Shown here piece after piece: positions 6,989 through 57,160 of a DNA stretch of 64,000 bases. The notes below the pieces were generated by a model that worked only from the letters and a program-made list of their open reading frames with translations, had not been told where the DNA came from and ran no database searches. The position numbers were made by a program, and so were the translations under genes. Numbering within the stretch: position 1 is the first letter of the stretch; every line of letters begins with the position of its first letter. This stretch comes from a virus. Its lineage: Duplodnaviria; Caudoviricetes. The DNA lies in the IMG/VR virus record IMGVR_UViG_3300020036_002473, positions 15,364-79,363 of that record. One strand, 5' to 3'.

Positions 6989-8182
6989 GTGAAGCTAACT
7001 ATCAATAGAGACGTGGATGAGGATGGTGAAAATGTTGTTGTGTTTGGAAACTTGCGCATGTCATTTCATTCTGACAGCCACAAGACGTTCTATTCAAAAT
7101 CTAGTAAGGATGGCTTGTTACGTTGGCTTTACACGCAAACAACTGGAAAGCCTGATGACAATCTTCGTAAGCTACCTTCTTGGAAAGAATTCTACACAGC
7201 CATTGGAGATGAGTGGGGCTGTAGTGTTGCTAAAATGATGCCTATTCTACAACATGCTATCTATTACCATTTGGTTGTTCCAAAAATGAATGCTATTAAG
7301 CACGTATGTTTCTGGAAGAAAGCTCATAAAAAACAAAAAATCCATGTTATAGGCAATTATAAAAGCATTGAGCAAGTTGTAAAGGATGGAAACAGCAGGC
7401 TTCTTCCTTTAATGTATAAGAAGAATTGCTATGACACAAAAGTATTAAAAGAAAACTATGGGAGTAGCTTATGGAAGTATCTTTGCTCTTGCAAAAAGCA
7501 TAGAATTTCTGTTATAGCTAAGAACATTAATATGCAGGATGATGCTTGGGAGTATGTACACAAGATACCAACAGGACTACTAGATGATGCCCACCCTATA
7601 ACGTACAATACATATGTTACAGAAAAGGAAGCTGTAAAGATCATAGACTGGGTGGTTGGGAATATTCCGTACACAAAATGTGACGCCTCAAAGCTTATAT
7701 CGCTTCTTAGGGATACTGTTGCTATGGGTAGGTCCCTTGATAAACCATTAAACTTTAACAAGCTAAAAGGTCATGGATATGAGGACATTATTACATTGCA
7801 TGACAAACTAGCTATTGAGCATAGGGCTAAACAGGATGAGATACAAAGCAAGCGTATGGACTTGGTGTTGTGCAAAGGATTACCTGAAATTGTTGAGAAA
7901 GACAATATTACAGCTACACTGCTAGACACAAGACGTAAACTTAGTGAAGAAGGGAATGTTATGCACCACTGTGTTAGCTCATATGCTTCTTATGTTGAAA
8001 GGGGAGAATATCTTGTGTATAGTGTGAGAGGGAATAACGAGAGGTCTACAATTGGGCTACAAAAAGTAGGGGATACTTTTGATATTGAGCAAGTTAGGGG
8101 TGTTTGCAACGCTAATGTCAGCGAATCTCATAAAATGTTTGCTTTACACGTTTTAACAGAATTGAATAAGGAGAGTATCTAA
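6989..8182 (+). CDS. PcfJ-like domain protein
   Basis: C-terminal LSEEGNVMHHCVSSY...STI...EQVRGVCN signature. Confidence 0.75.
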   Translation: MKLTINRDVDEDGENVVVFGNLRMSFHSDSHKTFYSKSSKDGLLRWLYTQTTGKPDDNLRKLPSWKEFYTAIGDEWGCSVAKMMPILQHAIYYHLVVPKMNAIKHVCFWKKAHKKQKIHVIGNYKSIEQVVKDGNSRLLPLMYKKNCYDTKVLKENYGSSLWKYLCSCKKHRISVIAKNINMQDDAWEYVHKIPTGLLDDAHPITYNTYVTEKEAVKIIDWVVGNIPYTKCDASKLISLLRDTVAMGRSLDKPLNFNKLKGHGYEDIITLHDKLAIEHRAKQDEIQSKRMDLVLCKGLPEIVEKDNITATLLDTRRKLSEEGNVMHHCVSSYASYVERGEYLVYSVRGNNERSTIGLQKVGDTFDIEQVRGVCNANVSESHKMFALHVLTELNKESI

Positions 8183-8627: not shown

Positions 8628-9053
8628 ATGAGAAATTCTTGGAGAACTTCCGTTGGGGGCGTAGCCACATACTCGGTAATTCGCCTATGGAACAAAGGAG
8701 ATAAGACGGGGTCTTTGCTAGGAATGTTCCTAACGCTTCTTGGCCCGCAAGGGTGCTTCTTTCTTCTTTGCTTCCTGATTATTGCTGTTGTTAATTTCTG
8801 GATGTGGCTAATCGGAGCAGCCCTCCTCTTGTGGGCAAGCTTAGCTATTGCTATTAGTTTGTCTATGCCTAAGTATTTCTTCAATGCTGGCTGCTGGTGG
8901 ACAACAGAAGGAGATAATACGCATGTTGTAGACACAGCATGGATGCAGGAGAAATTTACGAAAGAGCAGCGTGTAGATATGCAAAGGAAATTTTTGAAGG
9001 CGCTGGGGAAATACCGTAAGGATTACCCTCATATGTCGTTGGATGTTTTATAG
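8628..9053 (+). CDS. Hypothetical membrane protein
   Basis: Two or three hydrophobic segments, GAGGAG RBS. Confidence 0.65.
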   Translation: MRNSWRTSVGGVATYSVIRLWNKGDKTGSLLGMFLTLLGPQGCFFLLCFLIIAVVNFWMWLIGAALLLWASLAIAISLSMPKYFFNAGCWWTTEGDNTHVVDTAWMQEKFTKEQRVDMQRKFLKALGKYRKDYPHMSLDVL

Positions 9054-9196
9054 GATTTAAGCCATTATTGAAGAGTCAAGTAGAGATTTTCACTTGTATA
9101 ATCATTAGGTTACAATGGTTTTCAACAAATTTACGCCCCATATGAGTAGAGGCATATGGAGGTATTGTTTATTAGCTTTAAGAGAGGAGATATACT

Positions 9197-10465
9197 ATGA
9201 GAATGTTAAACATGAATATCACGTATGGTAGAGTGGTAGATTGTTGGATTAGAGATAGGTATGGAAATGAATGTAGTGATAGTGTTATTAAAGCTATGTG
9301 TATTGTCGTAGCTAATGTTCTCTCGTCTAAGGTAGAACACACGTATGTTAGACGTAAGACTTCAGTGATAGCAAGTAAATATAATAGACTTAAAATCACT
9401 ATGACTCACTACAAGACAGCAGCAGATAGACTACACAAGGATGGATTGGTAGAGAAGTACGATGGTAAGGCTCATTTACATGAAGAGCTACGTGAGAGTG
9501 CATGGGTAAAGGGTAGCGGCATATACAAAGAGTTTGATGTTGCTACACAGAAAGAAATGTCCTCTAGTTACGATGATACATTGCAAACAATTATTCTACG
9601 TGCAAAGAAAACAAAAGGTGTGAGTGGAAGTGATGCTCTTTTAGGATATAAGGACAACACAAATATTTATTCTATGCGTAAAGTTGTTATTGGGCTGAAT
9701 AAATTGAATAAGAAGCACAAGTTTACTTTGCAAGGTGTAGAAATGGATAACTCCAGCATGGTAAGGATATTTAATGGTGCTTGGGACAAAGGTGGAAGGT
9801 TTTATAGATGTGGTGTGCAAGATGTTAAGCAGCGAGATAGTAATAAAATGCCACTTCCTATTGAACAAACCAGATTAGGAATTCTTATTGACAATAGTCC
9901 TGTCATAGAGATTGACTTTAGAAGCCTTCACCCACTAATTGTGTATGCCAAGGATGGAATTGACGTACACAAGTTCAAGGGAGACTTCTACGAATACATT
10001 ATGTCTTGCTCCACATTTGATTTGAAAGAAGCTGATAGGCAGCTAATCAAGCTTGGTGTTGTTATTGCATTCAACTCTCTGGATGAGACAAAGGCAGCTG
10101 CTGCACTACAGAAAGAGATTAACTTTAACAAGGGAGTGTACTCATTCTCTCGTGGCTGGGATGTGTATAGCCTAATTTATAAAAGCTTGGAAGAAATACA
10201 ACATTATTTCTGTTCTGCTGAAGGAACAGGCTTGCATTTGCAATACATTGATAGTATGATTGCTGAAGAAGTGGCTAGAACATTTATTGCAGATGGAAAG
10301 CCACTACTTCCTGTGCATGACTCATTTGTTGTGAAAGCAGAAGATGAGAATAAGCTTCTGGAAGCTATGTGTTGGAGCTTCAGAAAAGTGACAGGGAATG
10401 ATAATATTCCTATTGGACTGAAGATAAAACGATGGGATAGTAGTGAAGAAAATTACATTGACTAG
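9197..10465 (+). CDS. Compact family A / T7-RNAP-like polymerase-palm protein
   Basis: Ordered motifs GGRFY, EIDFRSLHP, RQLIKLGVVIAFN, LQYIDSMIAE, PVHDSF; GAGGAG RBS. Confidence 0.6.
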   Translation: MRMLNMNITYGRVVDCWIRDRYGNECSDSVIKAMCIVVANVLSSKVEHTYVRRKTSVIASKYNRLKITMTHYKTAADRLHKDGLVEKYDGKAHLHEELRESAWVKGSGIYKEFDVATQKEMSSSYDDTLQTIILRAKKTKGVSGSDALLGYKDNTNIYSMRKVVIGLNKLNKKHKFTLQGVEMDNSSMVRIFNGAWDKGGRFYRCGVQDVKQRDSNKMPLPIEQTRLGILIDNSPVIEIDFRSLHPLIVYAKDGIDVHKFKGDFYEYIMSCSTFDLKEADRQLIKLGVVIAFNSLDETKAAAALQKEINFNKGVYSFSRGWDVYSLIYKSLEEIQHYFCSAEGTGLHLQYIDSMIAEEVARTFIADGKPLLPVHDSFVVKAEDENKLLEAMCWSFRKVTGNDNIPIGLKIKRWDSSEENYID

Positions 10466-10746
10466 CGTCTATGGCTCAGAAGAGAATTATATTGATTAGG
10501 CTGTAACCAGCTAATTAATTGTAAACAATTGAGGAGAACTAAATTAAGAAGGTTAATATACACCAAGCGAAGATGTTTTTAGAAGAACTAGACAGGATTA
10601 ATGGCCTTAATCTGGAGGACATTGTGTTCACTAACTTCACTGGAGAGAAGATTGTTATTCCAGATGATGTCTTGTCAGAGTGGAAGATTGGCGGCCTTGA
10701 CAACACGGCATTCATTCGTGATTATTTTATGGGGAGGCTCGGTTAA

Positions 10747-15914: not shown

Positions 15915-15980
15915 GATACCTAACAGGATACCTAACAGGATACCTAACAGGATACCTAACAGGATACCTAACAGGATACC
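15915..15980. repeat. Tandem repeat, 5.5 x GATACCTAACAG
   Basis: Perfect 12-bp units at 15915, 15927, 15939, 15951, 15963 plus GATACC. Confidence 0.97.
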
Positions 15981-28146: not shown

Positions 28147-29166
28147 ATGTCAGAACGTAAATTAGCATCAATTCAAACTATTGCGGAGATCAAGCCCATT
28201 GGAGGGGCTGATCGGATTGTAGCCTATCGTATCAACGGGTGGTGGGTTGTTGATACCAAGGATAAATATCAAGTAGGTGATCTGGGAGTATATTGTGAAG
28301 TTGATAGCTTCATTCCAACAGAGATAGCACCCTTCCTAACAAAGCCTGAGCATTTTCCTAAAGAATTTCTAGGAATTAAGGGAGAGCGTTTGCGCACAAT
28401 TAAGCTTAAAGGGCAATTATCACAAGGGCTATTGCTTCCTATGTCTGTGCTCCCAAACACTGAATCTGTTGGAATCGGCTTCTATATTGAAGGAGAAGAT
28501 GTGACTTCATCTTTAGGTATCCTCAAATATGAAAAGCCCTTGCCAGCCTGCTTAGCAGGAACAGCTAAAGGAAATTTCCCAAGCTTCATCCCTAAGACTG
28601 ACCAAGAGCGTGTGCAGAATCTTTCCAAAGAAATCCAAGAAATGCAAGGAGAGCTATTTGAAGTGACAATCAAGCTTGATGGAAGCTCTTGCACAATCTT
28701 TGTAAACGGAGAAGATAATGGTGTGTGCTCTCGTAACCTTGAGCTGAAGCAAACAGACACGAATGCTTTCTGGCAGATTGCTGTAGAAGAGGATGTTCAT
28801 GCAAAACTGCGCTCCACAGGACGTAATCTTGCTCTGCAAGGAGAACTAATTGGGCCAAGCATTCAAGGTAATTATGAGAAAGTTGCCAAGAATGAATTCT
28901 ATGTGTATGATGTGTTTGACATTGACAAGCAAGCTTATTTGCTTCCAGCAGAGCGTTGGGATGTTGTGCAACAGCTGGGCTTGAAGCATATCCCTATTCT
29001 CACAGGAAGTCGTAGACTAGATCACAATGTCCAGCAACTCCTTGACATGGCTGAAGGAGAAGGAATGAACAAGGGCGTTAAACGTGAAGGGCTTGTGTTC
29101 AAGCATTTACACTCTGATTTTAGTTTCAAGGCTATTAGCAATAGTTATTTATTAAAGGAGAAATAA
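28147..29166 (+). CDS. RNA ligase, DRB0094-type
   Basis: N-terminal RKLASIQTI...ADRI, KLDGS, GELIG, EGLVFK, FKAIS. Confidence 0.9.
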   Translation: MSERKLASIQTIAEIKPIGGADRIVAYRINGWWVVDTKDKYQVGDLGVYCEVDSFIPTEIAPFLTKPEHFPKEFLGIKGERLRTIKLKGQLSQGLLLPMSVLPNTESVGIGFYIEGEDVTSSLGILKYEKPLPACLAGTAKGNFPSFIPKTDQERVQNLSKEIQEMQGELFEVTIKLDGSSCTIFVNGEDNGVCSRNLELKQTDTNAFWQIAVEEDVHAKLRSTGRNLALQGELIGPSIQGNYEKVAKNEFYVYDVFDIDKQAYLLPAERWDVVQQLGLKHIPILTGSRRLDHNVQQLLDMAEGEGMNKGVKREGLVFKHLHSDFSFKAISNSYLLKEK

Positions 29167-29531
29167 TGTCAGCAGATGCTATTATTGTATTTGGCATAAG
29201 TGGAAAATTTAGCATGGAGCTTCCACTATACTTCTCAATTCACGAAATAACAGACTACGAGAAGAGTTGTGGCTATGCTCCACCAAACACAACCTATTAC
29301 ATCCACACAGGGTTGCATTACTTCGATAAGCATTGGGGATGCTTTAGTAAAGAATTTAGAGATGTTATTCTTACACTCCTGAATCTGCTAGACGATGTCA
29401 ATGTAAGTTGTGTTTACTATGGGTATGACTGCCTAGATCAAGCAAAGTTGTTTACAATGCAAGATTGGCATGATATTGTAGAGGCTTACGAAATTGCTGA
29501 AAGGAAATACAATGACTACGCCTCTTTATGA
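29166..29531 (+). CDS. Hypothetical protein
   Basis: TAATG coupling. Confidence 0.65.
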   Translation: MSADAIIVFGISGKFSMELPLYFSIHEITDYEKSCGYAPPNTTYYIHTGLHYFDKHWGCFSKEFRDVILTLLNLLDDVNVSCVYYGYDCLDQAKLFTMQDWHDIVEAYEIAERKYNDYASL

Positions 29532-30834
29532 AATAATAACAGCCCTACAACAAGAGCCTAGCAGCAATGCTAAGCTAGAAATCCTCCAAGCCAACAAAGA
29601 AAACGCTCTGTTGAAGGAATATTTGCGTGTAACGCATTCTCCACAGATAAATTTCTATGTTTCTGAAAAGACGTTTCCTATTGCAGACGCTGGGACAATC
29701 CCATGCTTGGCATTAGGCACAGCTACAATTGGATACGCTATACATAACTACGCCTTGCGTAACAGTACAGGACACGACGCATTACGAGACATTACAAAGA
29801 AGCTTCGTTGGCTGTCTAAAGAAGATGGAGAGCTATTCAAAATGATGCTCCTGAAAGACATTAAAGCAGGAATTGGAGCTAAGCAAATTAACAAAATTTG
29901 GGATGGGATCATCCCTGTACAGCCTTACATGCGTTGCTCATTACCCTCAGATGTAGACACAAGCAAATGGGATTGGGAAGCTGGCGTGTATTCACAAGTG
30001 AAGGCTGATGGGATGTATTGTGCTATTAGCAATAACAAGGCTGTAACACGCAATGGGAATTGTTTTGATATTAAGAGCTTTCCTGTTGATCTGAGAGAAG
30101 CTATCCGTAGTATTCCAAAAGGTGTTGAACTTAATGGTGAGCTACTTGTTCTAGCAAAAGATAACTCTATTATGGACAGAAAGACAAGTAATGGGCTTCT
30201 TAACAGCTTGCTTAAGTCAGGTGATAAGATTGCAAAAAACTACACCATTGTGTATTTCATCTGGGATTATCAGTTTGCAAAAGATGCACAACCATACGAA
30301 TGTAGATACAAGGAATTAGGAGCAGCTTATGCAAAAGATGGCCCTATACGTCTAATTGAAACGCATACCTGTCACACACCAGAACAAGCACAAGAACATT
30401 TGAAAGCCTGCCTAGCCCTTGGCTTAGAAGGCACTGTCCTCAAAAACCCTAAAGGGCTATGGAAAGATGGCACAAGCAAAGACATTGTTAAGAATAAAAT
30501 TGTTGCAGACATTGAGCTTCTCTGTTATGATGTTTATGAAGGCTCTGGAAAGGCTAAAGGGAAGTTAGGAGGCTTGTCGCTGCGCTCCTCAGATGGCATT
30601 GTCCAAGTAAATTGTGGCACAGGGTTTACAGATAAGCAGCGGGAGGAATATTGGAAGCATCCTCCTATTGGGTGCATTATTCATATTACAGCTAATGATC
30701 TTGTGCAAGAGAAAAAGAAAAACTCTTTTTCTTTATTCCTGCCAAGCTTTCAGGAAATTCGTACAGACAAGAATGAAGCTGATGACTTCCAAAAGATTAA
30801 AGATATCTTTAATAATGCGAAGGGAATTGCATAA
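29512..30834 (+). CDS. lig: ATP-dependent DNA ligase
   Basis: KADG, LNGEL, EGTVLK, GTGF, LFLPSF..IRTDK. Confidence 0.92.
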   Translation: MTTPLYEIITALQQEPSSNAKLEILQANKENALLKEYLRVTHSPQINFYVSEKTFPIADAGTIPCLALGTATIGYAIHNYALRNSTGHDALRDITKKLRWLSKEDGELFKMMLLKDIKAGIGAKQINKIWDGIIPVQPYMRCSLPSDVDTSKWDWEAGVYSQVKADGMYCAISNNKAVTRNGNCFDIKSFPVDLREAIRSIPKGVELNGELLVLAKDNSIMDRKTSNGLLNSLLKSGDKIAKNYTIVYFIWDYQFAKDAQPYECRYKELGAAYAKDGPIRLIETHTCHTPEQAQEHLKACLALGLEGTVLKNPKGLWKDGTSKDIVKNKIVADIELLCYDVYEGSGKAKGKLGGLSLRSSDGIVQVNCGTGFTDKQREEYWKHPPIGCIIHITANDLVQEKKKNSFSLFLPSFQEIRTDKNEADDFQKIKDIFNNAKGIA

Positions 30835-33851: not shown

Positions 33852-35606
33852 GTGGCTTATGTAGAGAGCAAGCAGCCTTGTCCCCGTTGTGTACGTAATG
33901 GACGGGACAAGGCAGGGGATAATTTTCATTTCTATGGAGATGGACGTGGAGGCCACTGTTTCAGCTGTGGATATACGATGCTGTCAGATGCTGAAAAAGA
34001 AGCTCGTGGAATAGATAAATTTGAATGGGATGAAGAACAGGAGAAAATTGTGAGCACGAAGGAGGTTATTACGCCAGAGGAATCTGAGCAAATTAAGAGC
34101 TACACAGGGACAAAGGGGCATGAAAGCCGTGGTATTACGGATGAGACGTATAAGGCTTATGCTGTGCGTTTTGAATACAGCGAGGAAACTGGAGAGCCTA
34201 CAAAGCACTATTATCCATACACTGAGAACTATAAAGCTGCCGGATATAAAATCCGCATTCTGCCCAAGGATTTTACAACAGTGGGGAAAATTGGGAAGCA
34301 GAGTGAGTTGTTTGGGCAATGGAAGTTTAAGAATAGTAATTCTAAGAATGTTGTGATTTGCTCTGGTGAAGTGGATTGTTTGTCAGCTTTTCAGATGCTT
34401 GAAAACTATCGTAAATCTCGTAATGGAGATTTTGAGCCTACTCCAGTGGTTAGCTCTGGAATTGGAGAGACAGGGAGCTACAAACAAATTCAGCTTCAGT
34501 ATGAATGGCTTAATCGTTTTGATAAGATTATCATCTGCTACGACATGGACACAGCTGGAAAAGATGCTATTAAAACTCTAGTGAAAGTGCTACCTAAAGG
34601 TAAGATGTTTGTCATGGAGCTTCCAGCTAAAGACACAAACGAGATGCTTTCAAAGGGTAAGGAGAAGGCTTGGATTGACGCTTATTATAAGGCTAAACCT
34701 TATAGCCCTGACGGGATTGTTGGGAGCAGTGGATTGCTTGATAAAATTAAAGAAGCAGCATTAATTCCTAAAGTTCCCCTCCCAGCTTTCATGCACGAGG
34801 TAGAAAAACAGATGGCTGGGGGCATTCCTTTAGGTGTTATTGTGAATTTAGCTTCCTCTTCCGGCAGTGGAAAGAGTACGATTGTTGATGAATGCACATA
34901 TTTCTGGGCTTTTAACAGCCCACACAAGCTTGGAGTAGTTACTTTAGAGAGCGATTGTGCACAATACGGAACAAAAATACTGTCTCGCCACATCTCTCAG
35001 AAGATTGACCTCATTGAGAACAATGAAGATAAGTTGAAGTTGTTAAACAGCGATTACATAGAGGAAAAATCTAACGAGCTATTCCTAAACCCTGATGGTA
35101 GTGACAGGTGGATGCTTATTGAAGAGCGCGATGGTGGGCTAGAGAGTATGAAGGCTTTAATTATGGAACTTATTATCTCTTGCGAGTGTAAGTTGATAAT
35201 TTTAGACCCTGTGAGTGACCTTCTTGAATCGCTGGACAATGAAACTCAAGCTGGCTTTTGTAAATGGATGAAGGGGATTGTGAAGTCTCATGGGATAACA
35301 TTTATTAATGTAGCTCATGTGAGAAAGTCTGCCAGCAACCAAAAGGCAAATTCGACAGGTGCAGTTATGCACGAAGAAGATATTTTTGGAAGTGGTAGCT
35401 TGATTAAATCTGCTGCATGTAACCTTCTATTCACCCGAAACAAAGAGGCAGAGGATGCAATTGAACGAAATACAATTTCTATGCTTATGTCTAAATGCCG
35501 ATGGACTGGTAGAACAGGTATTGCAGGACAATATTACTATGATAACGAGTCACACACTTTATTTGACAAAGCTGATTGGCTCAGAACACAAGGAAACAAC
35601 TTCTAA
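33852..35606 (+). CDS. DNA primase-helicase, T7 gp4-like
   Basis: Zn finger CPRC...CFSC, TOPRIM GEVD and YDMD, SSGSGKS, ILDPV, HVRK, GSGSL, KCRWTG. Confidence 0.95.
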   Translation: MAYVESKQPCPRCVRNGRDKAGDNFHFYGDGRGGHCFSCGYTMLSDAEKEARGIDKFEWDEEQEKIVSTKEVITPEESEQIKSYTGTKGHESRGITDETYKAYAVRFEYSEETGEPTKHYYPYTENYKAAGYKIRILPKDFTTVGKIGKQSELFGQWKFKNSNSKNVVICSGEVDCLSAFQMLENYRKSRNGDFEPTPVVSSGIGETGSYKQIQLQYEWLNRFDKIIICYDMDTAGKDAIKTLVKVLPKGKMFVMELPAKDTNEMLSKGKEKAWIDAYYKAKPYSPDGIVGSSGLLDKIKEAALIPKVPLPAFMHEVEKQMAGGIPLGVIVNLASSSGSGKSTIVDECTYFWAFNSPHKLGVVTLESDCAQYGTKILSRHISQKIDLIENNEDKLKLLNSDYIEEKSNELFLNPDGSDRWMLIEERDGGLESMKALIMELIISCECKLIILDPVSDLLESLDNETQAGFCKWMKGIVKSHGITFINVAHVRKSASNQKANSTGAVMHEEDIFGSGSLIKSAACNLLFTRNKEAEDAIERNTISMLMSKCRWTGRTGIAGQYYYDNESHTLFDKADWLRTQGNNF

Positions 35607-37635: not shown

Positions 37636-39561
37636 ATGGCAGTGTATGCAGCAGACATTGAGACAACAGGGCTATTGGATGATATGTACAAGCAAGAACA
37701 TCCAAAGCTTCATAATATTTGTGGTATTAACATTGAGACAGATGAGATTGTGTTGTTTGAAGGCTCTGATAAATCCAAGATTCAAGCTTGGCTTGATGAA
37801 GGGCATACATTCGTCACACACAATTGCTATACATATGATATGCCAGCCTTAGAGTTTCTGGGGTTTGGTGTGTCTAATGTTAAGTGGATTGATAGCTTGG
37901 CTATTTCTTGGTATCTGGAACCAGAAAGAATGAAGCATGGCCTTGCAGAGTATGGAGAAGATTTTGGTGTCAAGAAGCCTATTATTGAGAATTGGGAAAA
38001 CCAAACACAAGAAGAATACAACCATCGTGTTATAGAGGATTGTAAGATTCAGAAGCTCTTATGGCAGAAGCAGACAAAGATGCTCAACACATTGTATGGT
38101 GATTCAGGGTATGAGCGTGTCCTTAATTATCTAATGTGGAAAATGCAATGCTTACGTATGCAGCAAGACAACAAATGGAAGCTTGATGTTGATGGTGCTA
38201 ATAAGCTCAGAGTGTTGCTAGAAGCTGAGATTGAACGCAAGGTGGATGCTCTTAAAGAGGTTATGCCTAAAGTGCCTGAGTATGTTGTTCGTAAGCGTCC
38301 AGCAAAGCCCTTCAAGATGGATGGCTCTCTATCAGCATCTGGAGAGAATTGGAAAGCTTTGACAGAAGAGCATAAACTCCCATTTGAGCACACAGGAGAT
38401 ATTAAGGTTGTTAAAGGTTGGAATATTGGTAATCCTTCTTCTCACGTACAGATGAAAGCATGGCTTGATGGGCTTGGATGGGAACCAGAGACATTTAAAT
38501 TCATTCGTGAGGATGATGGCTCAACACGTAAGATTCCCCAGATCAATCTTAAAGGTGGTGAGATTTGCCAGTCCGTAAAAGATTTAATTCCTAAGTGTGC
38601 TGGAATTGAACACATTGCAGGGCTTGGAATTCTTAACCATAGGCTTAGTGTTGTTAATGGGTGGCTTCGTGATAGCGTAGATGGCTGCATTACAGCACGA
38701 GCACAAGGCTTTACCAATACGCTGCGTATGCAGCACAAAGAATATTGCAACACACCTTCCACTCGTGTTCCTTATGGAAGTGAACTGCGAAGCCTTCTTG
38801 TAGCTAGAGAAGGACATACTCTTTGTGGTAGTGACTTAAGTGGCGTAGAGAACTATATTAAGAACCATTTCCAATGGCACATTGATAGAGAATATGTAAA
38901 GACACAATTATCTGATGGATATTGCCCACACTTAAGTATTTGCGTATCAGCAGGGATGATGAGCGAAGAGGATGCTGAGTGGTATAAATGGTATAAGAAG
39001 CAAAGTGAGCACACACCAGAGTTTGATAAGAAGTTTGCTGCTCTTGACGCTATCCGTTCTGTAGGAAAATCCACCAACTACGCATGCCAATACGGATCGG
39101 GGGTCGAGACTTTGGCGAGAACAGCGAAGGTTAGTAAGAAAGCTGCAAAGATGTTACATGAGGGATACAACAAGCTTAACTGGTCCGTCCCTAAGATTGC
39201 TTCAATGATGGTGGTGAAGAGCACAGCATTTGGAAATTGGCAGCTTAATCCTGTTAATAAGTTTTGGTATTCTTTGCGAACAGATAAAGATAGGTTTAGT
39301 ACATTGGTGCAAGGTACAGCTGCATATGTATTTGATATTTGGCTTTACCAATGCTACATCCTTGCTAAGAAGCGTAGAATGGAATATAAGATTCTTGCCC
39401 AATCCCATGATGACCAAGTCCTTGAATTTAAAGGAGAAATTCGTGACGACATTGAGAATCTTATACGAGATGCCTTAGTAAATGTTAATAAAACATTAAA
39501 ACTTAATGTAGCTATCAAGTGTGATGTTATGTTTGGAAAGAATGGTAAGGAGATTCACTAA
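37636..39561 (+). CDS. DNA polymerase, family A, with 3'-5' exonuclease
   Basis: DIETTGL, YDMPAL, DLSGVE, GKSTNYACQYG, VQGTAA, SHDD. Confidence 0.95.
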   Translation: MAVYAADIETTGLLDDMYKQEHPKLHNICGINIETDEIVLFEGSDKSKIQAWLDEGHTFVTHNCYTYDMPALEFLGFGVSNVKWIDSLAISWYLEPERMKHGLAEYGEDFGVKKPIIENWENQTQEEYNHRVIEDCKIQKLLWQKQTKMLNTLYGDSGYERVLNYLMWKMQCLRMQQDNKWKLDVDGANKLRVLLEAEIERKVDALKEVMPKVPEYVVRKRPAKPFKMDGSLSASGENWKALTEEHKLPFEHTGDIKVVKGWNIGNPSSHVQMKAWLDGLGWEPETFKFIREDDGSTRKIPQINLKGGEICQSVKDLIPKCAGIEHIAGLGILNHRLSVVNGWLRDSVDGCITARAQGFTNTLRMQHKEYCNTPSTRVPYGSELRSLLVAREGHTLCGSDLSGVENYIKNHFQWHIDREYVKTQLSDGYCPHLSICVSAGMMSEEDAEWYKWYKKQSEHTPEFDKKFAALDAIRSVGKSTNYACQYGSGVETLARTAKVSKKAAKMLHEGYNKLNWSVPKIASMMVVKSTAFGNWQLNPVNKFWYSLRTDKDRFSTLVQGTAAYVFDIWLYQCYILAKKRRMEYKILAQSHDDQVLEFKGEIRDDIENLIRDALVNVNKTLKLNVAIKCDVMFGKNGKEIH

Positions 39562-53436: not shown

Positions 53437-54338
53437 ATGTATTGTCGTTATTTGATGGAATGTCTTGTGGCAGAATCGCATTAGATAAATGTGGGATTAC
53501 ACCGACACATTATTTTGCCAGTGAGATTGATAAACACGCAATCAAAGTATCAAAAGATAACTGGAGCGATATTACACATATTGGAGATGTTACTAAAATT
53601 AGCTTCTCAAATGGTGTGCTGACAACAGAGAATGGTGTGTTTAATATTGGTAAAATTGATTTAGTATTGGCTGGAAGCCCTTGCCAAGGATTTTCAATGG
53701 CTGGAAAGCAATTAGCTTTTGAAGATGAACGTAGTAAACTGTATTTTGTGTTTGAAAAGCTTCTAAACGATATTAAGCAAGAAAATCCAGATGTAAAGTT
53801 TTTGCTAGAGAATGTTAAGATGAAGAAAGAGCACAAAGACTTCATTAGCAGTCGTTTAGGCGTTGAACCTGTTGCAATCAATTCTAATCTAGTCTCTGCA
53901 CAAAACCGTTACCGATTGTACTGGACTAATATTGGAGATATTACACAACCTGAAGATAAGGGTATCTTACTTAAAGACATTTTGACAACTCAAGGCGAGT
54001 TCACCTATAAAAATCATCCAGCTATTAAAAATGGAGTTAGGTGTAAGAACTATGTTCAATGGGACATTCAAAATAAAAATAGAAAGTGCCAAAGCCAGCG
54101 CGCGTATTATGTAGATGGCAAAGCAGGTACACAAGACACAGTAGGTCAGTCTAAAGTATTACTCGCAGATGGTCAAATTAGGTTGCTAACAGCACTAGAG
54201 TGTGAACGACTGCAAACAGTTCCAGATTTATACACACTACTTGCGGGTGAATCACAAGCGAAACGTATGCTAGGAAACGGCTGGACAGTGGACGTTATTG
54301 CACACATCTTACAATCTTTGAAAGGAGAAAAATGTTAG
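53433..54338 (+). CDS. C5-cytosine DNA methyltransferase
   Basis: SLFDG, GSPCQGFS, LLENV, AQNRYRLYW, LGNGW. Confidence 0.92.
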   Translation: MNVLSLFDGMSCGRIALDKCGITPTHYFASEIDKHAIKVSKDNWSDITHIGDVTKISFSNGVLTTENGVFNIGKIDLVLAGSPCQGFSMAGKQLAFEDERSKLYFVFEKLLNDIKQENPDVKFLLENVKMKKEHKDFISSRLGVEPVAINSNLVSAQNRYRLYWTNIGDITQPEDKGILLKDILTTQGEFTYKNHPAIKNGVRCKNYVQWDIQNKNRKCQSQRAYYVDGKAGTQDTVGQSKVLLADGQIRLLTALECERLQTVPDLYTLLAGESQAKRMLGNGWTVDVIAHILQSLKGEKC

Positions 54339-56866
54339 TAATTAAACGAGATGGACGAAAAGTGGGCTTCGCCACAAAATACATTACAGACGCTATTCTA
54401 ATGGCTGCTGCTCGAACAGGGAACCCTATTCCCGACCTAGGGCATGTAATAGCAAACATTGAGAAGAAGCTAGAGGGCAAACAAGAAATTCACGTAGAAG
54501 CTATTCAAGACATTGTTGAGAAAGCTTTGATGAATAGCAAATATAAGGATGTAGCTAAGGAATATATCTCATACCGGAAAGAGCGTGACATTGCTCGTGA
54601 AGGAGGAAGTAAGCTGCTGAAGGATATTGAGGAGTTTATCAACCAAAGCTCGGATGAATTTCTAAAAGAGAATGCTAACAAGGAGGCTGGAGTTGTAAGC
54701 ACACATCGGGATTTGCTGGCAGGTATTCTTTCTAAGCATATTGCTATTACGCAATTGCTCCCGAAGGATGTTGCAGATGCACATTTACGAGGTGTTATAC
54801 ATTTTCACGATGCTGATTATTTTTTAAGCCCCCTCGGGAATTGTATTGACCAGTCAGGTTGGATTACAATTAAGGATAATAAAGGTAAAATTTCTACTGT
54901 CCAGATGAAAGACTTGGTAGAGATGTTTAATCTTGGTGAAGGAACTACTAAGATGCCTTTCGGTATTCGTGTGCTTAGCCGTAATGGTTGGTCTGCTGTT
55001 GAGGCTGTATCTATGCGCAAGCTTGGTACAGAAGAGCCAATCTATAAGATTAAAACTCGTACAGGTTTGTCTATTGATGTAACAGGAGAGCATAGAATTC
55101 CTGTAATGACAATGGGTGTTGAGGGTTTGAAGGAGGCTAAGGAAATCACCACAGAAGATTGCCTGCTTGGCATGGCAAGCTCGTTTGAGCAAGAAGGTGA
55201 TGGAATTATTAGTTTGCTGGACTATCTTGACGACCCAACACTGCATGTGACATCTTTAGTCAAACTTAAAAGGTTTGTGGAGTACAAATATGGGGAGTCC
55301 TTGCAAGGGTTGTTTAAGAAGTTCAATATCGAAGTAACAACAAATGCAAGTATGCTTAGGGTTAAAGTACATGAGCTTAAAGCCCTTTTAAAGCATATTG
55401 ATATTCCGTATGATGTTTACTCTTCTTTTGAGTTGACTAGACTTGGGGGTAATTACAGAACTCCAGCAATACTTCAGGTTAGTAATGAGTTGGCACGTAT
55501 GATTGGGTATGTTCTTGCGGACGGGTCTGTTAGTAAATCTAAAGTGTCTGGGTCATATCAGGTCACATTTAGCAACACCAATCAAGATTTAATTAAAGAC
55601 TATATTCACTGCGTCAATAAGGTATTCCCTTCTGTCAATGTCTATATTCAACCTCCGTCTGAAAAGAATACGACACCATGCACCAGTGTAAAGTTGTCAA
55701 GTGCAACTATTACGGACTTATTCAGCAAATTTAAGAGGGGGTCTGGGGATATTTGCTTACCGGATTTTATATTAAATGGTGATGAGGAGGTTAAGTATAA
55801 CTTCTTAGCGGCTGCGTGGGATTGCGATGGCTGCTGGTCTTCTACAGGTCAGATGAGCTACACAACAGTGTGTAAAAAGTACGCTGAGCAAGTTACCTTA
55901 ATGCTAGAATCTTTAGGCTTCTCTCCGTCACTAAGAGAAAGCGCATCCAAGGGTACTAAATATAGTGCTAAAGGTGTTGAGGGATTTAGAAACTATGACA
56001 CATATAGTGTGTGCATGAGCAGTGTTAAAGACCTTGTTAAATTTAAAGACTCTGTTAGTTCTTGGAAAGGGGACAGATATACAAATATTGACCGTAAAGG
56101 TGCTGTTCATAATCCAGACCGTGTAGTGAAGATCACTAAGGAATACCACAACTACCGGCTTGTATTTGACTTGCAAACATCAGACCACTGGTTTATTGTT
56201 AATAACTTTGTTGTTCACAATTGTAGTTTGGTGCGATATGAGGATATGCTTGAGCATGGCTTCAAGATTGGAGATGCTCAGATTAGCAAGCCTAAGAGTA
56301 TTGGTGTTGCTACAACAATTCTCACACAGATTGCACAAGCTGTAAGCTCTAGTCAATATGGTGGTCAATCACATGCTCACATTGATAAAGGGCTTGCTCA
56401 GTATGTTAAGGCTAGCGAGGATAAGTTGAAAGTGGAAGCTTTCAAGTGGGTTGATGAGAACATGCTTAGCGAGTATGTGAAAGAGAAGCTTGAAAAAGAA
56501 GTATATGATGCTATGCAATCCCTGCTTTATCAGATTAACACCCTGACAACAAGTAATGGACAAAGCCCTTTCATTACAATCTCTCTCGGCCTTGATACAT
56601 CTTATTATGGACGTATGATAACGGAGCAATACTTAAAGGTACATCTGGAAGGTATTGGAGAGAATAAGGCTACTCCAGTGTTTCCGAAGGTGGTGTTCTT
56701 CTTGGAAGACGGAGTCAATCTAAAAGAGGGTGATGCTAATTATGATTTGAAGAAGCTTGCTATTCAATGCTCTACAAAGCGTATTTACCCTGACTATATC
56801 TCTGTGCCTAAGAACAGGGAGATTACAGGGGTATCAGAGCAAGCTCTTCCGGTAACACCGATGGGT
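54332..56866 (+). CDS. nrdD: Anaerobic ribonucleotide reductase, exon 1 (contains intein)
   Basis: ATP cone VIKRDG, HFHD, QYGGQS, NGQSPF, FPKVVF, YPDY; ends PMG. Confidence 0.92.
54842..56221 (+). mobile_element. Intein with LAGLIDADG endonuclease, 460 aa
   Basis: Starts CIDQ, ends VVHN before Cys; IGYVLADG and FLAAAWDCDG motifs. Confidence 0.93.
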
Positions 56867-57160
56867 GGACGTATTACAGCCTAACGTCTGTATTCTCTAC
56901 ATGCCCATTTAAAACTCATTGAACTCAGGGGAAGTCTAGAACAGATAATCCTGATCTAAGCCTAGTAATAGGAAAGAGCAACGACCACTTCTGTATGAAG
57001 GTAGGCTGTAAGCACAGCCGAAGCGGTGAGCACCATCCCCTCTTAGGCGTATGTACTAGGAGACATGTTTGGTGATGATATGGTCTGGTCTGCATAGGGA
57101 TATGCAGCTGCTAAGAAGTTGTTAGCGGGGAATGTCTAGCGAACATTCTTGAACAATACG
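56867..57160 (+). ncRNA. Group I intron in nrdD, no ORF, 294 nt
   Basis: P1 AUGGGU/GCCCAU, P10 UCUACA/UGUAGA, P7 GACCA/UGGUC, terminal G; splicing restores PMGCRSFL. Confidence 0.92.

What the first reader, a model, noticed from the sequence alone, without database searches (positions are those of the whole stretch)
9053..10465. Second, compact polymerase-like protein with hybrid palm motifs
Seen: 422 aa with ordered motifs WDKGGRFY, EIDFRSLHPLI, RQLIKLGVVIAFN, LQYIDSMIAE and PVHDSF; no exonuclease domain; a possible winged-helix N-terminus; a CCATATG-N8-CATATGG hairpin at 9138-9159 in its leader. Known: T7 RNAP has DWRGRVY and HDSF; family A DNA polymerases have RxxxK and HDE; family B motif A is DxxSLYPS. 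The replicative PolA is already encoded at 37636. Inference: an accessory template-dependent nucleotidyltransferase (primer maker, mini RNA polymerase or counter-defence enzyme), perhaps acting on hairpins or the dispersed repeats.
Basis: partly seen in the sequence, partly recalled or inferred. Interest (0 to 1): 0.75.

Follow-up and report, generated by a model that had tools for sequence, protein, structure and literature searches.

The report
Minimal Pol I/T7-type polymerase, phage
An uncultured 79-kb wastewater phage that already has its own DNA polymerase and primase also encodes a 422-residue stripped-down relative of DNA polymerase I and T7 RNA polymerase with a DNA-binding-type head; the family has been described twice by computation (TV-Pol, divPolA2) but never assayed, and it probably starts nucleic-acid chains at chosen DNA sites.

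Summary

This is not a new kind. It belongs to divPolA2 (Yutin 2024): a profile match to the published representative AUR84708 gives probability 99.7%, E 8e-26. It also fits the TV-Pol description (Iyer 2008). Full-length bacterial relatives lie beside integrases (53 of 80 loci) and resolvases (24 of 80). This scan has met the family before in other phage genomes.

The "hybrid" signature is real within this sub-family: His at the steric-gate position, Asn where the O-helix Tyr sits, and HDSF as in T7 RNA polymerase. Sugar preference therefore cannot be read from sequence.

The leader hairpin is not conserved and is near chance. No conserved partner gene or adjacent origin-like element was found. 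Alleles are mosaic: the N-terminal domain is swapped, and a relic of an earlier 3' end remains.

Most likely function is a site-directed primer-making polymerase (about 0.45). No member except the distant CCPol has been assayed.

The parts
9197..10465 (+). CDS, 422 aa: winged-helix-like head plus minimal PolA/T7-RNAP-type polymerase (divPolA2 / TV-Pol family)
9197..9532 (+). aa 1-112: N-terminal winged-helix-like domain (H28-43, H69-81, wing strands 85-88 and 102-106). It is the most divergent part between alleles.
9533..9754 (+). aa 113-186: two helices (115-128, 155-172) and the conserved TIILR strand; possible minimal thumb
   Evidence: Secondary structure of the model. N168 is nearly invariant. 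Assignment as a thumb is inferred, not shown.
9782..9805 (+). WDKGGRFY: beta-hairpin carrying the invariant Arg201 (counterpart of DWRGRVY in T7 RNAP and of the template/primer-contacting Arg of Pol I)
   Evidence: G200 and R201 are 92/92. Strands 189-193 and 199-203.
9908..9940 (+). Motif A, EIDFRSLHPLI: catalytic Asp240. His245 sits at Asp+5, where family A DNA polymerases have the steric-gate Glu and T7 RNAP has Gly.
   Evidence: E238 and D240 are 92/92; H245 is 89/92. Strand 234-241 is followed by helix 244-253.
9983..10225 (+). aa 263-343: short fingers. Contains D263-x-Y265 and motif B R281-x3-K285-x7-N293, with Asn where Pol I and T7 RNAP have Tyr.
   Evidence: D263 87/92, Y265 92/92, R281 89/92, K285 92/92, N293 90/92
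10310..10327 (+). Motif C, PVHDSF: catalytic Asp375. HDSF as in T7 RNAP (HDSF), not HDE as in Pol I.
   Evidence: H374 and D375 are 92/92; S376 is 87/92. It is the only stretch that hhalign pairs with T7 RNAP.
9054..9196 (+). 143-nt leader. Perfect -10-like TATAAT at 9097-9102 with a poor -35; hairpin at 9138-9159 followed by a T-rich run (terminator-like or 5'-UTR stem); GAGGAG at 9184-9189.
   Evidence: The hairpin is not conserved in L128 or L129.
10473..10499 (+). Relic of an earlier 3' end of the gene (GGC TCA GAA GAG AAT TAT ATT GAT TAG = GSEENYID*), 8 nt after the present stop
   Evidence: Contigs of two wastewater/aquatic runs join 10436 directly to 10471, so there the gene ends ...RWDGSEENYID* on this copy (table 5).

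Best explanation
The gene encodes an active, proofreading-free, single-subunit polymerase of the PolA/T7-RNAP superfamily, reduced to about 300 residues: a minimal thumb, a beta-hairpin with Arg201, a palm with Asp240 and Asp375, and short fingers with R281xxxK285. It is fused to an N-terminal winged-helix-like DNA-binding head. It belongs to the computationally defined divPolA2 group of phages and fits the TV-Pol description.

Most likely mechanism (inferred): the head positions the enzyme on a specific DNA site. The core then starts a chain de novo and extends it for a short distance, making a primer that the phage's own gp4-like primase-helicase (33852-35606) and PolA (37636-39561) take over. 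That would make it an accessory, site-directed initiator of replication or replication restart, analogous to T7 RNAP priming at the T7 origin and to CCPol-MP priming at the SCCmec origin.

Whether the product is RNA or DNA cannot be told from sequence. The steric-gate position is His and the O-helix Tyr position is Asn.

What is shown: fold, family membership, conservation of catalytic residues, genomic context. What is inferred: DNA binding by the head, de novo initiation, role in replication.
For: - The catalytic and substrate-contact residues are invariant in 92 diverse relatives. The family is very large: 3,320 clusters at E<=1e-3. This argues for an active enzyme under selection.
- divPolA2 membership: hhalign of the family profile against AUR84708 gives prob 99.7, E 8.4e-26, 322 columns. 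BLASTP to the window protein gives E 3e-8.
- TV-Pol features (PMC2579912) are all present. Full-length bacterial relatives (profile positions 14-412, E about 1e-97) lie beside tyrosine integrases in 53/80 loci and resolvases in 24/80, with type I R-M nearby. This is the context Iyer et al. describe for TV-Pols with an N-terminal domain.
- Priming precedent: CCPol-MP, a TV-Pol, makes DNA primers de novo when given a ssDNA-binding partner (PMC7581432).
- The head is winged-helix-like. It is the part exchanged between alleles while the catalytic part stays 97-100% identical, as expected for a specificity module.
- The phage has its own replicative PolA, Toprim-helicase and ligase, so this enzyme is accessory.
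- In many related phage contigs the gene opens a block of small early-type genes after a strand switch.
Against: - No activity has been measured for any close member of this sub-family.
- In this phage the gene is not next to an origin-like element. The nearest candidate is the perfect 12-mer array at 15915-15980, at a strand and GC-skew switch, 5.4 kb away. There are no iterons around the gene.
- No helicase or ssDNA-binding partner is conserved beside it, unlike CCPol-MP-Cch2.
- The phage already has a Toprim primase, so a second primer maker is not obviously needed.
- The patchy distribution, the paralogues in other phages and the allele swapping would also fit an arms-race or selfish gene.
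- HDSF and the loss of the steric-gate Glu lean toward RNA synthesis. That is compatible with RNA priming but equally with transcription.
Confidence: 0.45

Rival explanations
1. A miniature DNA-dependent RNA polymerase used for transcription. The winged-helix head recognises a phage promoter and the core transcribes a subset of phage genes. Paralogues in other phages would serve different promoter classes.
For: - Motif C is HDSF as in T7 RNAP, and the steric-gate Glu of DNA polymerases is absent.
- One of 92 relatives touches Pfam RNA_pol PF00940 at E 2.3e-4.
- Some related phage contigs carry two copies.
- Yutin et al. raise this possibility.
Against: - The core is about 300 aa, with fingers of about 80 aa. 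By size alone there is no room for a specificity loop, an intercalating hairpin or a T7-type N-terminal domain.
- The Tyr that T7 RNAP uses to select rNTPs is Asn here.
- No dispersed conserved promoter-like motif stands out: direct repeats in the window are mostly ribosome-binding regions.
- Sigma-70-like sites are present, including one before this gene.
- Bacterial relatives sit in integrase/resolvase islands, where a private RNA polymerase has no obvious role.
Confidence: 0.2
2. A primer-dependent DNA polymerase for repair, gap filling or recombination-dependent synthesis, with the N-terminal domain acting as a thumb substitute or protein-interaction module.
For: - The best structural matches include Pol theta, Pol nu and apPol.
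- Yutin et al. suggest repair as one option, and suggest that the N-terminal domain may act as a thumb.
- The distant representative AUR84708 keeps Glu at Asp+5 and FDE in motif C, like DNA polymerases.
Against: - This sub-family has replaced exactly the residues that make family A enzymes DNA-specific (E to H, Y to N, HDE to HDS).
- There are no repair or recombination genes as conserved neighbours.
- A swapped, fast-evolving head is not expected for a generic repair enzyme.
Confidence: 0.15
3. A selfish or arms-race gene. Either it is the replicase of a small mobile cassette (TV-Pol element) that has settled in phage genomes, or it is a counter-defence enzyme whose product (for example a decoy nucleic acid) neutralises a host system.
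For: - Distribution is patchy: 22 of 301 genomes in one bacterial order.
- Neighbourhoods in phages are variable, and other phages carry paralogues.
- Alleles are replaced at a fixed locus, leaving a relic 3' end, and natural variants lack the 34-nt junction.
- Bacterial copies sit in integration hot spots with R-M systems.
Against: - There is no recombinase, transposase or terminal repeats around the phage copy.
- The gene sits at the same place in three related phages.
- PADLOC has no match, and no known anti-defence family matches.
- This reading does not exclude a priming activity.
Confidence: 0.15

Closest known systems
divPolA2 (Yutin et al. 2024, Virol J 21:200, PMC11348598); representative AUR84708 of Vibrio phage 1.063.O
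   Same: - Homologous over 322 columns (hhalign prob 99.7, E 8e-26).
- About 420-430 aa: an N-terminal globular domain plus a palm with the catalytic Asp residues, and no exonuclease.
- Encoded in addition to a regular DNA polymerase.
- Variable neighbourhood; two or three paralogues in some phages.
- Top structural hits are both PolA and mtRNAP.
   Different: - Only 21% identical.
- AUR84708 has DFKAFE (Glu at Asp+5) and PVFDE. The window protein and 89-92 of its 92 nearest relatives have H at Asp+5 and HDS.
- The paper found no similarity for the N-terminal domain. Here it looks winged-helix-like, at weak scores.
- The paper's founding barbaviruses carry PolB; this phage carries PolA.
TV-Pol family (Iyer, Abhiman, Aravind 2008, Biol Direct 3:39, PMC2579912), the subset with an N-terminal domain in integrase/resolvase elements
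   Same: - A minimal PolA/T7-RNAP-like core: beta-hairpin Arg, two palm Asp, fingers Asp plus RxxxK.
- No nuclease, and 400-600 aa.
- Bacterial relatives of the window protein occur in Loktanella, Rhodobacteraceae, Rhizobium and others, beside integrase or resolvase genes and R-M operons.
   Different: - I could not compare directly with a sequence named in that paper.
- The family profile finds nothing in Microcystis phage Ma-LMM01, which carries a TV-Pol of another branch.
- There is no D5-like helicase beside the phage gene.
CCPol-MP primase-polymerase of SCCmec (Bebel et al. 2020, PMC7581432)
   Same: An exonuclease-less A-family core on a mobile element. It is the only TV-Pol with biochemistry: primer extension alone, and de novo DNA priming with a DNA-binding partner.
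   Different: - CCPol keeps the DNA-polymerase residues E174 and F225 (steric gate) and needs a separate OB-fold protein (MP) and the helicase Cch2 in one operon.
- Here the putative DNA-binding module is fused, the gate is His, and no partner is conserved.
T7 RNA polymerase / mitochondrial RNA polymerase (Pfam PF00940)
   Same: - The xxxGRxY hairpin motif, RxxxK and HDSF.
   Different: - Half the size.
- No Pfam match for this protein.
- Asn instead of the rNTP-selecting Tyr.
- An unrelated N-terminal domain.
Family A DNA polymerases (Pfam PF00476: Pol I, T7 DNAP, Pol theta, apPol)
   Different: - No Pfam or profile match.
- No 3'-5' exonuclease domain.
- His for the steric-gate Glu, Asn for the O-helix Tyr, HDS for HDE.
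- Fingers and thumb are much reduced.

Membership tests
divPolA2 (Yutin 2024) | Sequence homology to the published representative AUR84708 (MG592441.1) | tested here: met
   hhalign of A2 against L126:25472-26761(-) gives prob 99.7, E 8.4e-26, 322 columns. BLASTP gives E 3e-8. The profile hit in that genome is E 2.7e-43.
divPolA2 (Yutin 2024) | Encoded in addition to a regular replicative DNA polymerase | tested here: met
   PolA at 37636-39561 (PF00476). There is a single divPolA2 copy in the 79,363-bp genome.
divPolA2 (Yutin 2024) | N-terminal globular domain plus palm with catalytic residues, no exonuclease; variable neighbourhood, sometimes paralogues | tested here: met
   Model. There is no conserved neighbour in 44 phage loci. 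Three viral contigs carry two copies each.
TV-Pol (Iyer 2008) | [quoted passage not shown] | tested here: met
   Strands 189-193 and 199-203; R201 is 92/92.
TV-Pol (Iyer 2008) | RRM-like palm with two conserved metal-binding Asp | tested here: met
TV-Pol (Iyer 2008) | Fingers inserted after the first palm strand, with a conserved Asp and RxxxK | tested here: met
   D263 87/92, R281 89/92, K285 92/92
TV-Pol (Iyer 2008) | Thumb of two antiparallel helices before the hairpin | tested here: inconclusive
   Helices 115-128 and 155-172 are in the right place, but I could not inspect coordinates. Yutin et al. state that divPolA2 lacks a homologous thumb.
TV-Pol (Iyer 2008) | Mobile-element context (integrase, resolvase or D5-like helicase neighbours) | tested here: met
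   Met for the bacterial relatives: integrase in 53/80 loci, resolvase in 24/80, plus type I R-M. The phage copy has no such neighbour.
TV-Pol (Iyer 2008) | Detectable sequence relation to a protein named in the 2008 paper | tested here: inconclusive
   There is no profile match in Ma-LMM01. Sputnik V13, CCPol and the Brucella copies were not available to compare. Relatives occur in Loktanella and other Rhodobacterales, the taxa the paper started from.
CCPol-MP type PolA-SSB primase | Operon with a small OB-fold partner and a D5/Primase_Cterm helicase | tested here: not met
   No conserved adjacent gene family in 44 phage loci or in the window.
Family A DNA polymerase (PF00476) | Match to the family model; steric-gate Glu, O-helix Tyr, HDE | tested here: not met
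   No Pfam hit even at E 10. The residues are H245, N293 and HDS. Only the fold is shared.
T7-like single-subunit RNA polymerase (PF00940) | Match to the family model; rNTP-selecting Tyr in motif B; promoter-binding N-terminal domain and specificity loop | tested here: not met
   No Pfam hit for this protein. One of 92 relatives hits at E 2.3e-4. The Tyr position is Asn. The absence of a specificity loop is inferred from size, not tested.

The most novel reading that the evidence does not exclude
This would be the smallest self-sufficient, sequence-directed, single-subunit polymerase known. A fused winged-helix head would bind a specific double-stranded site, and a 300-residue PolA/T7-type core would then open it and start a chain de novo. 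A His/Asn pair would replace the Glu/Tyr pair that sets sugar choice in all studied relatives. The head would be exchanged between phages like a specificity cassette. That would make it a natural, half-size analogue of T7 RNA polymerase and a new route to origin or promoter recognition.
Probability: 0.2. Interest if true: 0.8.

Novelty: new member of a known kind. Interest (0 to 1): 0.45.

Why it matters
The family is very large: more than 3,300 clusters at 50% identity in phages and bacterial islands. It has no Pfam or NCBIfam model and is annotated 'hypothetical' in the phage records and source names seen here (one bacterial relative, P0023, is named a family A DNA polymerase in UniRef). No close member has been assayed. 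It marks the minimal catalytic core of the Pol I/T7 RNAP superfamily.

In this sub-family the residues that decide between RNA and DNA synthesis have been replaced by a conserved His/Asn pair. A simple NTP-versus-dNTP assay would therefore be informative about how sugar selection evolved.

If the enzyme primes at specific sites, it adds a third kind of primase (after DnaG and AEP) to ordinary tailed phages. It could also give a very small programmable polymerase for biotechnology.

A homologue in the lab phage ICP1 (gp100) makes the biology testable.

Tried and rejected
- Sequence searches against solved structures, with the single protein and with the profile, gave no polymerase. They gave only weak winged-helix-type hits in the head.
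- hhalign of the family profile against single sequences of T7 RNAP, T7 DNAP and the phage's own PolA gave nothing significant. Only HDSF paired with T7 RNAP, at E 0.03.
- PADLOC and NCBIfam gave no match.
- Megablast against isolated phages gave no match.
- The search for related loci failed with the single protein and with the wide alignments. It worked with a 15-sequence alignment.
- I looked for a conserved partner gene (MP-like, helicase) and found none. The PcfJ-like gene upstream is absent at that place in the closest relatives, so I rejected it as a partner.
- I considered the leader hairpin as a functional site and rejected it as unsupported.
- I looked for iterons around the gene and found none.
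- I considered origin adjacency. The gene lies inside a plus-strand block, 5-6 kb from the nearest skew switch.
- The 12-mer array at 15915-15980 is absent from the relative that carries a different head allele. That is one pair only, so it is not evidence.
- Profile search of Ma-LMM01 found nothing.
- Sequencing runs: no RNA holder is listed on record. The 'RNA-Seq' wastewater runs may be DNA, so nothing can be said about expression.
- ICP1 papers give the early origin only as 'near 60 kb' and do not mention gp100, so the ICP1 link remains a lead.
- I could not obtain model coordinates, so Asp-Asp distances and thumb geometry were not measured.

Full report
**1. What is there**

The window is bases 15364-79363 of a 79,363-bp virus record with direct terminal repeats, rated complete. 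ORF 9197-10465 (+) starts with ATG seven bases after GAGGAG and encodes 422 aa.

The 143-nt leader holds a perfect TATAAT (9097-9102) with a poor -35. It also holds the palindrome CCATATG-N8-CATATGG at 9138-9159, followed by a T-rich run. That hairpin is weak evidence:
- 14 of 100 shuffles contain such a match at up to 2 mismatches.
- The leader folds no better than shuffles (z -0.58).
- It is missing from the leaders of the two closest relatives.

**2. Family size and conservation**

Pfam, NCBIfam and PADLOC have no model for the protein. PHROG 4756, of unknown function, matches at 5e-45.

An exhaustive phmmer search finds 3,320 clusters (50% identity) at E<=1e-3 and 813 at E<=1e-10. tblastn finds it in 50 isolated phages of Vibrio, Aeromonas, Pseudoalteromonas, Shewanella and Klebsiella. 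All rows shown are annotated hypothetical, and some records have two places.

In 92 diverse relatives:
- G200, R201, E238, D240, Y265, K285, H374 and D375 never vary.
- H245, N293, R281, D263 and S376 are 87-90 of 92.

**3. Fold**

AlphaFold2 with that alignment gives pLDDT 95.8 and pTM 0.93.
- Foldseek's best PDB matches are family A DNA polymerases: apicoplast Pol, Aquifex Pol I, Pol theta, Klenow, Taq, Bst and T7 DNAP, with E down to 1.6e-6.

Model residues from about 125 to 417 are therefore a right-hand polymerase core. No family B polymerase appears in the top 50 matches listed, so the resemblance of DFRSLHP to DxxSLYPS is superficial.

**4. Which family**

Earlier notes of this scan pointed to Yutin et al. 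2024, which I checked. That paper defines divPolA2 as:
- a diverged PolA of about 430 aa with an unassigned N-terminal domain and no exonuclease;
- encoded besides a regular polymerase, in variable neighbourhoods, with up to three paralogues;

Its representative AUR84708 lies at MG592441.1 25469-26761. The family profile aligns to it over 322 columns with probability 99.7% and E 8.4e-26. Pairwise BLASTP gives E 3e-8 at 21% identity.

The 2008 TV-Pol paper lists four features: a thumb of two helices, a hairpin with an invariant Arg, two palm Asp, and fingers with an Asp and RxxxK. It also describes a subset with an N-terminal helical domain that lies beside resolvase, integrase or transposase genes in hot spots with restriction-modification operons.

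A scan of one genome per species found 182 bacterial relatives, mostly Alphaproteobacteria including Loktanella and other Rhodobacterales. In the best 80 loci:
- a tyrosine integrase family is present in 53;
- a serine resolvase family is present in 24;
- type I R-M genes recur.

These bacterial proteins match the whole profile, head included (positions 14-412, E about 1e-97). The gene is patchy: 22 of 301 genomes of one order carry it.

I could not compare directly with a protein named in the 2008 paper, and the profile finds nothing in Ma-LMM01. TV-Pol membership therefore rests on features and context, not on a direct alignment.

**5. The 'hybrid' signature**

Using the standard register of motifs A-C (established knowledge of Pol I and T7 RNAP):
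- The residue five after the motif A Asp is the steric-gate Glu in DNA polymerases and Gly in T7 RNAP. Here it is His245 (89/92).
- The residue eight after the motif B Lys is Tyr in both Pol I and T7 RNAP. Here it is Asn293 (90/92).
- Motif C is HDS-F as in T7 RNAP, not HDE.

The distant AUR84708 instead has Glu at the gate and FDE. So there are at least two sub-types, and sugar preference in this one cannot be read from sequence.

**6. Context in phages**

In 44 phage loci no neighbour family is conserved beyond lineage synteny (PhoH, ClpP). In many loci the gene opens a plus-strand run of small genes after a minus-strand block. Three viral contigs carry two copies; this genome has one.

The phage has its own PolA, Toprim-helicase and ligase.

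The gene lies inside a plus-strand block. The nearest skew and strand switch is at about 15-16 kb, where a perfect 12-mer array (15915-15980) sits in an ORF-less stretch. There are no iterons near the gene.

**7. Mosaic alleles**

The two closest relatives keep the gene at the same place (PhoH, ClpP, two small genes, polymerase).
- Against P0002, identity is 49% in the head, 55% in the linker, and 84-100% from the hairpin onwards.
- Against P0005, only the last 42 residues are 98% identical, and the rest is 24-76%.
- The last 165 nt or so are 90-95% identical in DNA among all three.

Eight bases after the stop lies a second copy of the last eight codons with synonymous changes (10473-10499). 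Contigs from two other runs join 10436 to 10471, so there the gene ends on that copy. The head, and sometimes most of the gene, is thus replaced by recombination at a fixed locus.

**8. Reading**

Identity as an active minimal polymerase of the divPolA2/TV-Pol kind is well supported. Function is inferred.

I favour site-directed primer synthesis for replication initiation or restart (0.45). The grounds are:
- the only assayed TV-Pol, CCPol, primes when joined to a DNA-binding partner;
- a DNA-binding-type head is fused here and behaves as an exchangeable specificity module;
- the bacterial copies sit in integrative elements that need a replicase;
- the phage already has a replicative polymerase.

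Rivals are a miniature transcriptase (0.2), a repair polymerase (0.15) and a selfish or counter-defence gene (0.15).

ICP1 gp100 is a homologue (E 2.4e-48). It lies about 5 kb from the early origin peak reported 'near 60 kb'. That makes a practical test system, not evidence.

The phage occurs in wastewater metagenomes of several studies.

Noticed in passing
window 10437-10499: The polymerase gene ends ...RWDSSEENYID*. Eight bases later comes GGC TCA GAA GAG AAT TAT ATT GAT TAG (GSEENYID*), which is the ending used by the relatives. Contigs from two other runs skip 10437-10470 and end the gene on the second copy. This looks like a footprint of allele replacement by recombination.
   Followed up: partly
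window 9197-10465 versus P0002 (L128) and P0005 (L129): The alleles are mosaic. Against P0002 the head is 49% identical and the fingers and palm 97-100%. Against P0005 only the last 42 residues are 98% identical. The locus (PhoH, ClpP, two small genes, polymerase) is fixed.
   Followed up: yes
window 15915-15980: A perfect tandem array of GATACCTAACAG (5.5 copies) lies in an ORF-less, G+C-rich stretch where gene orientation and GC skew switch, making it a candidate origin or iteron site. It is absent from the related contig L137, which has AT-rich repeats there instead.
   Followed up: partly
window 6989-8182: A PcfJ-like protein (PF14284, E 2e-17) lies between ClpP and the small genes upstream of the polymerase. 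The two closest relatives lack it at this place, so it is probably an insertion.
   Followed up: partly
window 54332-56884: The anaerobic ribonucleotide reductase NrdD is interrupted by an intein with a LAGLIDADG homing endonuclease domain.
   Followed up: no
window 28147-29166: An ATP-dependent RNA ligase of the DRB0094 type (TIGR02306, E 2e-50) lies upstream of an ATP-dependent DNA ligase (29494-30834).
   Followed up: no
L135 (ICP1 NC_015157 53113-54780) and L126 (MG592441.1 25469-27200): ICP1 gp100 (555 aa, hypothetical) is a homologue of the family (profile E 2.4e-48). In both ICP1 and Vibrio phage 1.063.O an acyl-carrier-protein-like gene lies a short way upstream (adjacent in 1.063.O, two small ORFs away in ICP1).
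   Followed up: partly
L047 and L048 (CAZTDV010000007.1, 83.9 kb, 'Sediminibacterium' MAG): A contig binned into a bacterial MAG carries two copies of the polymerase gene 30 kb apart and has the size of the related phages. It is probably a phage contig.
   Followed up: no
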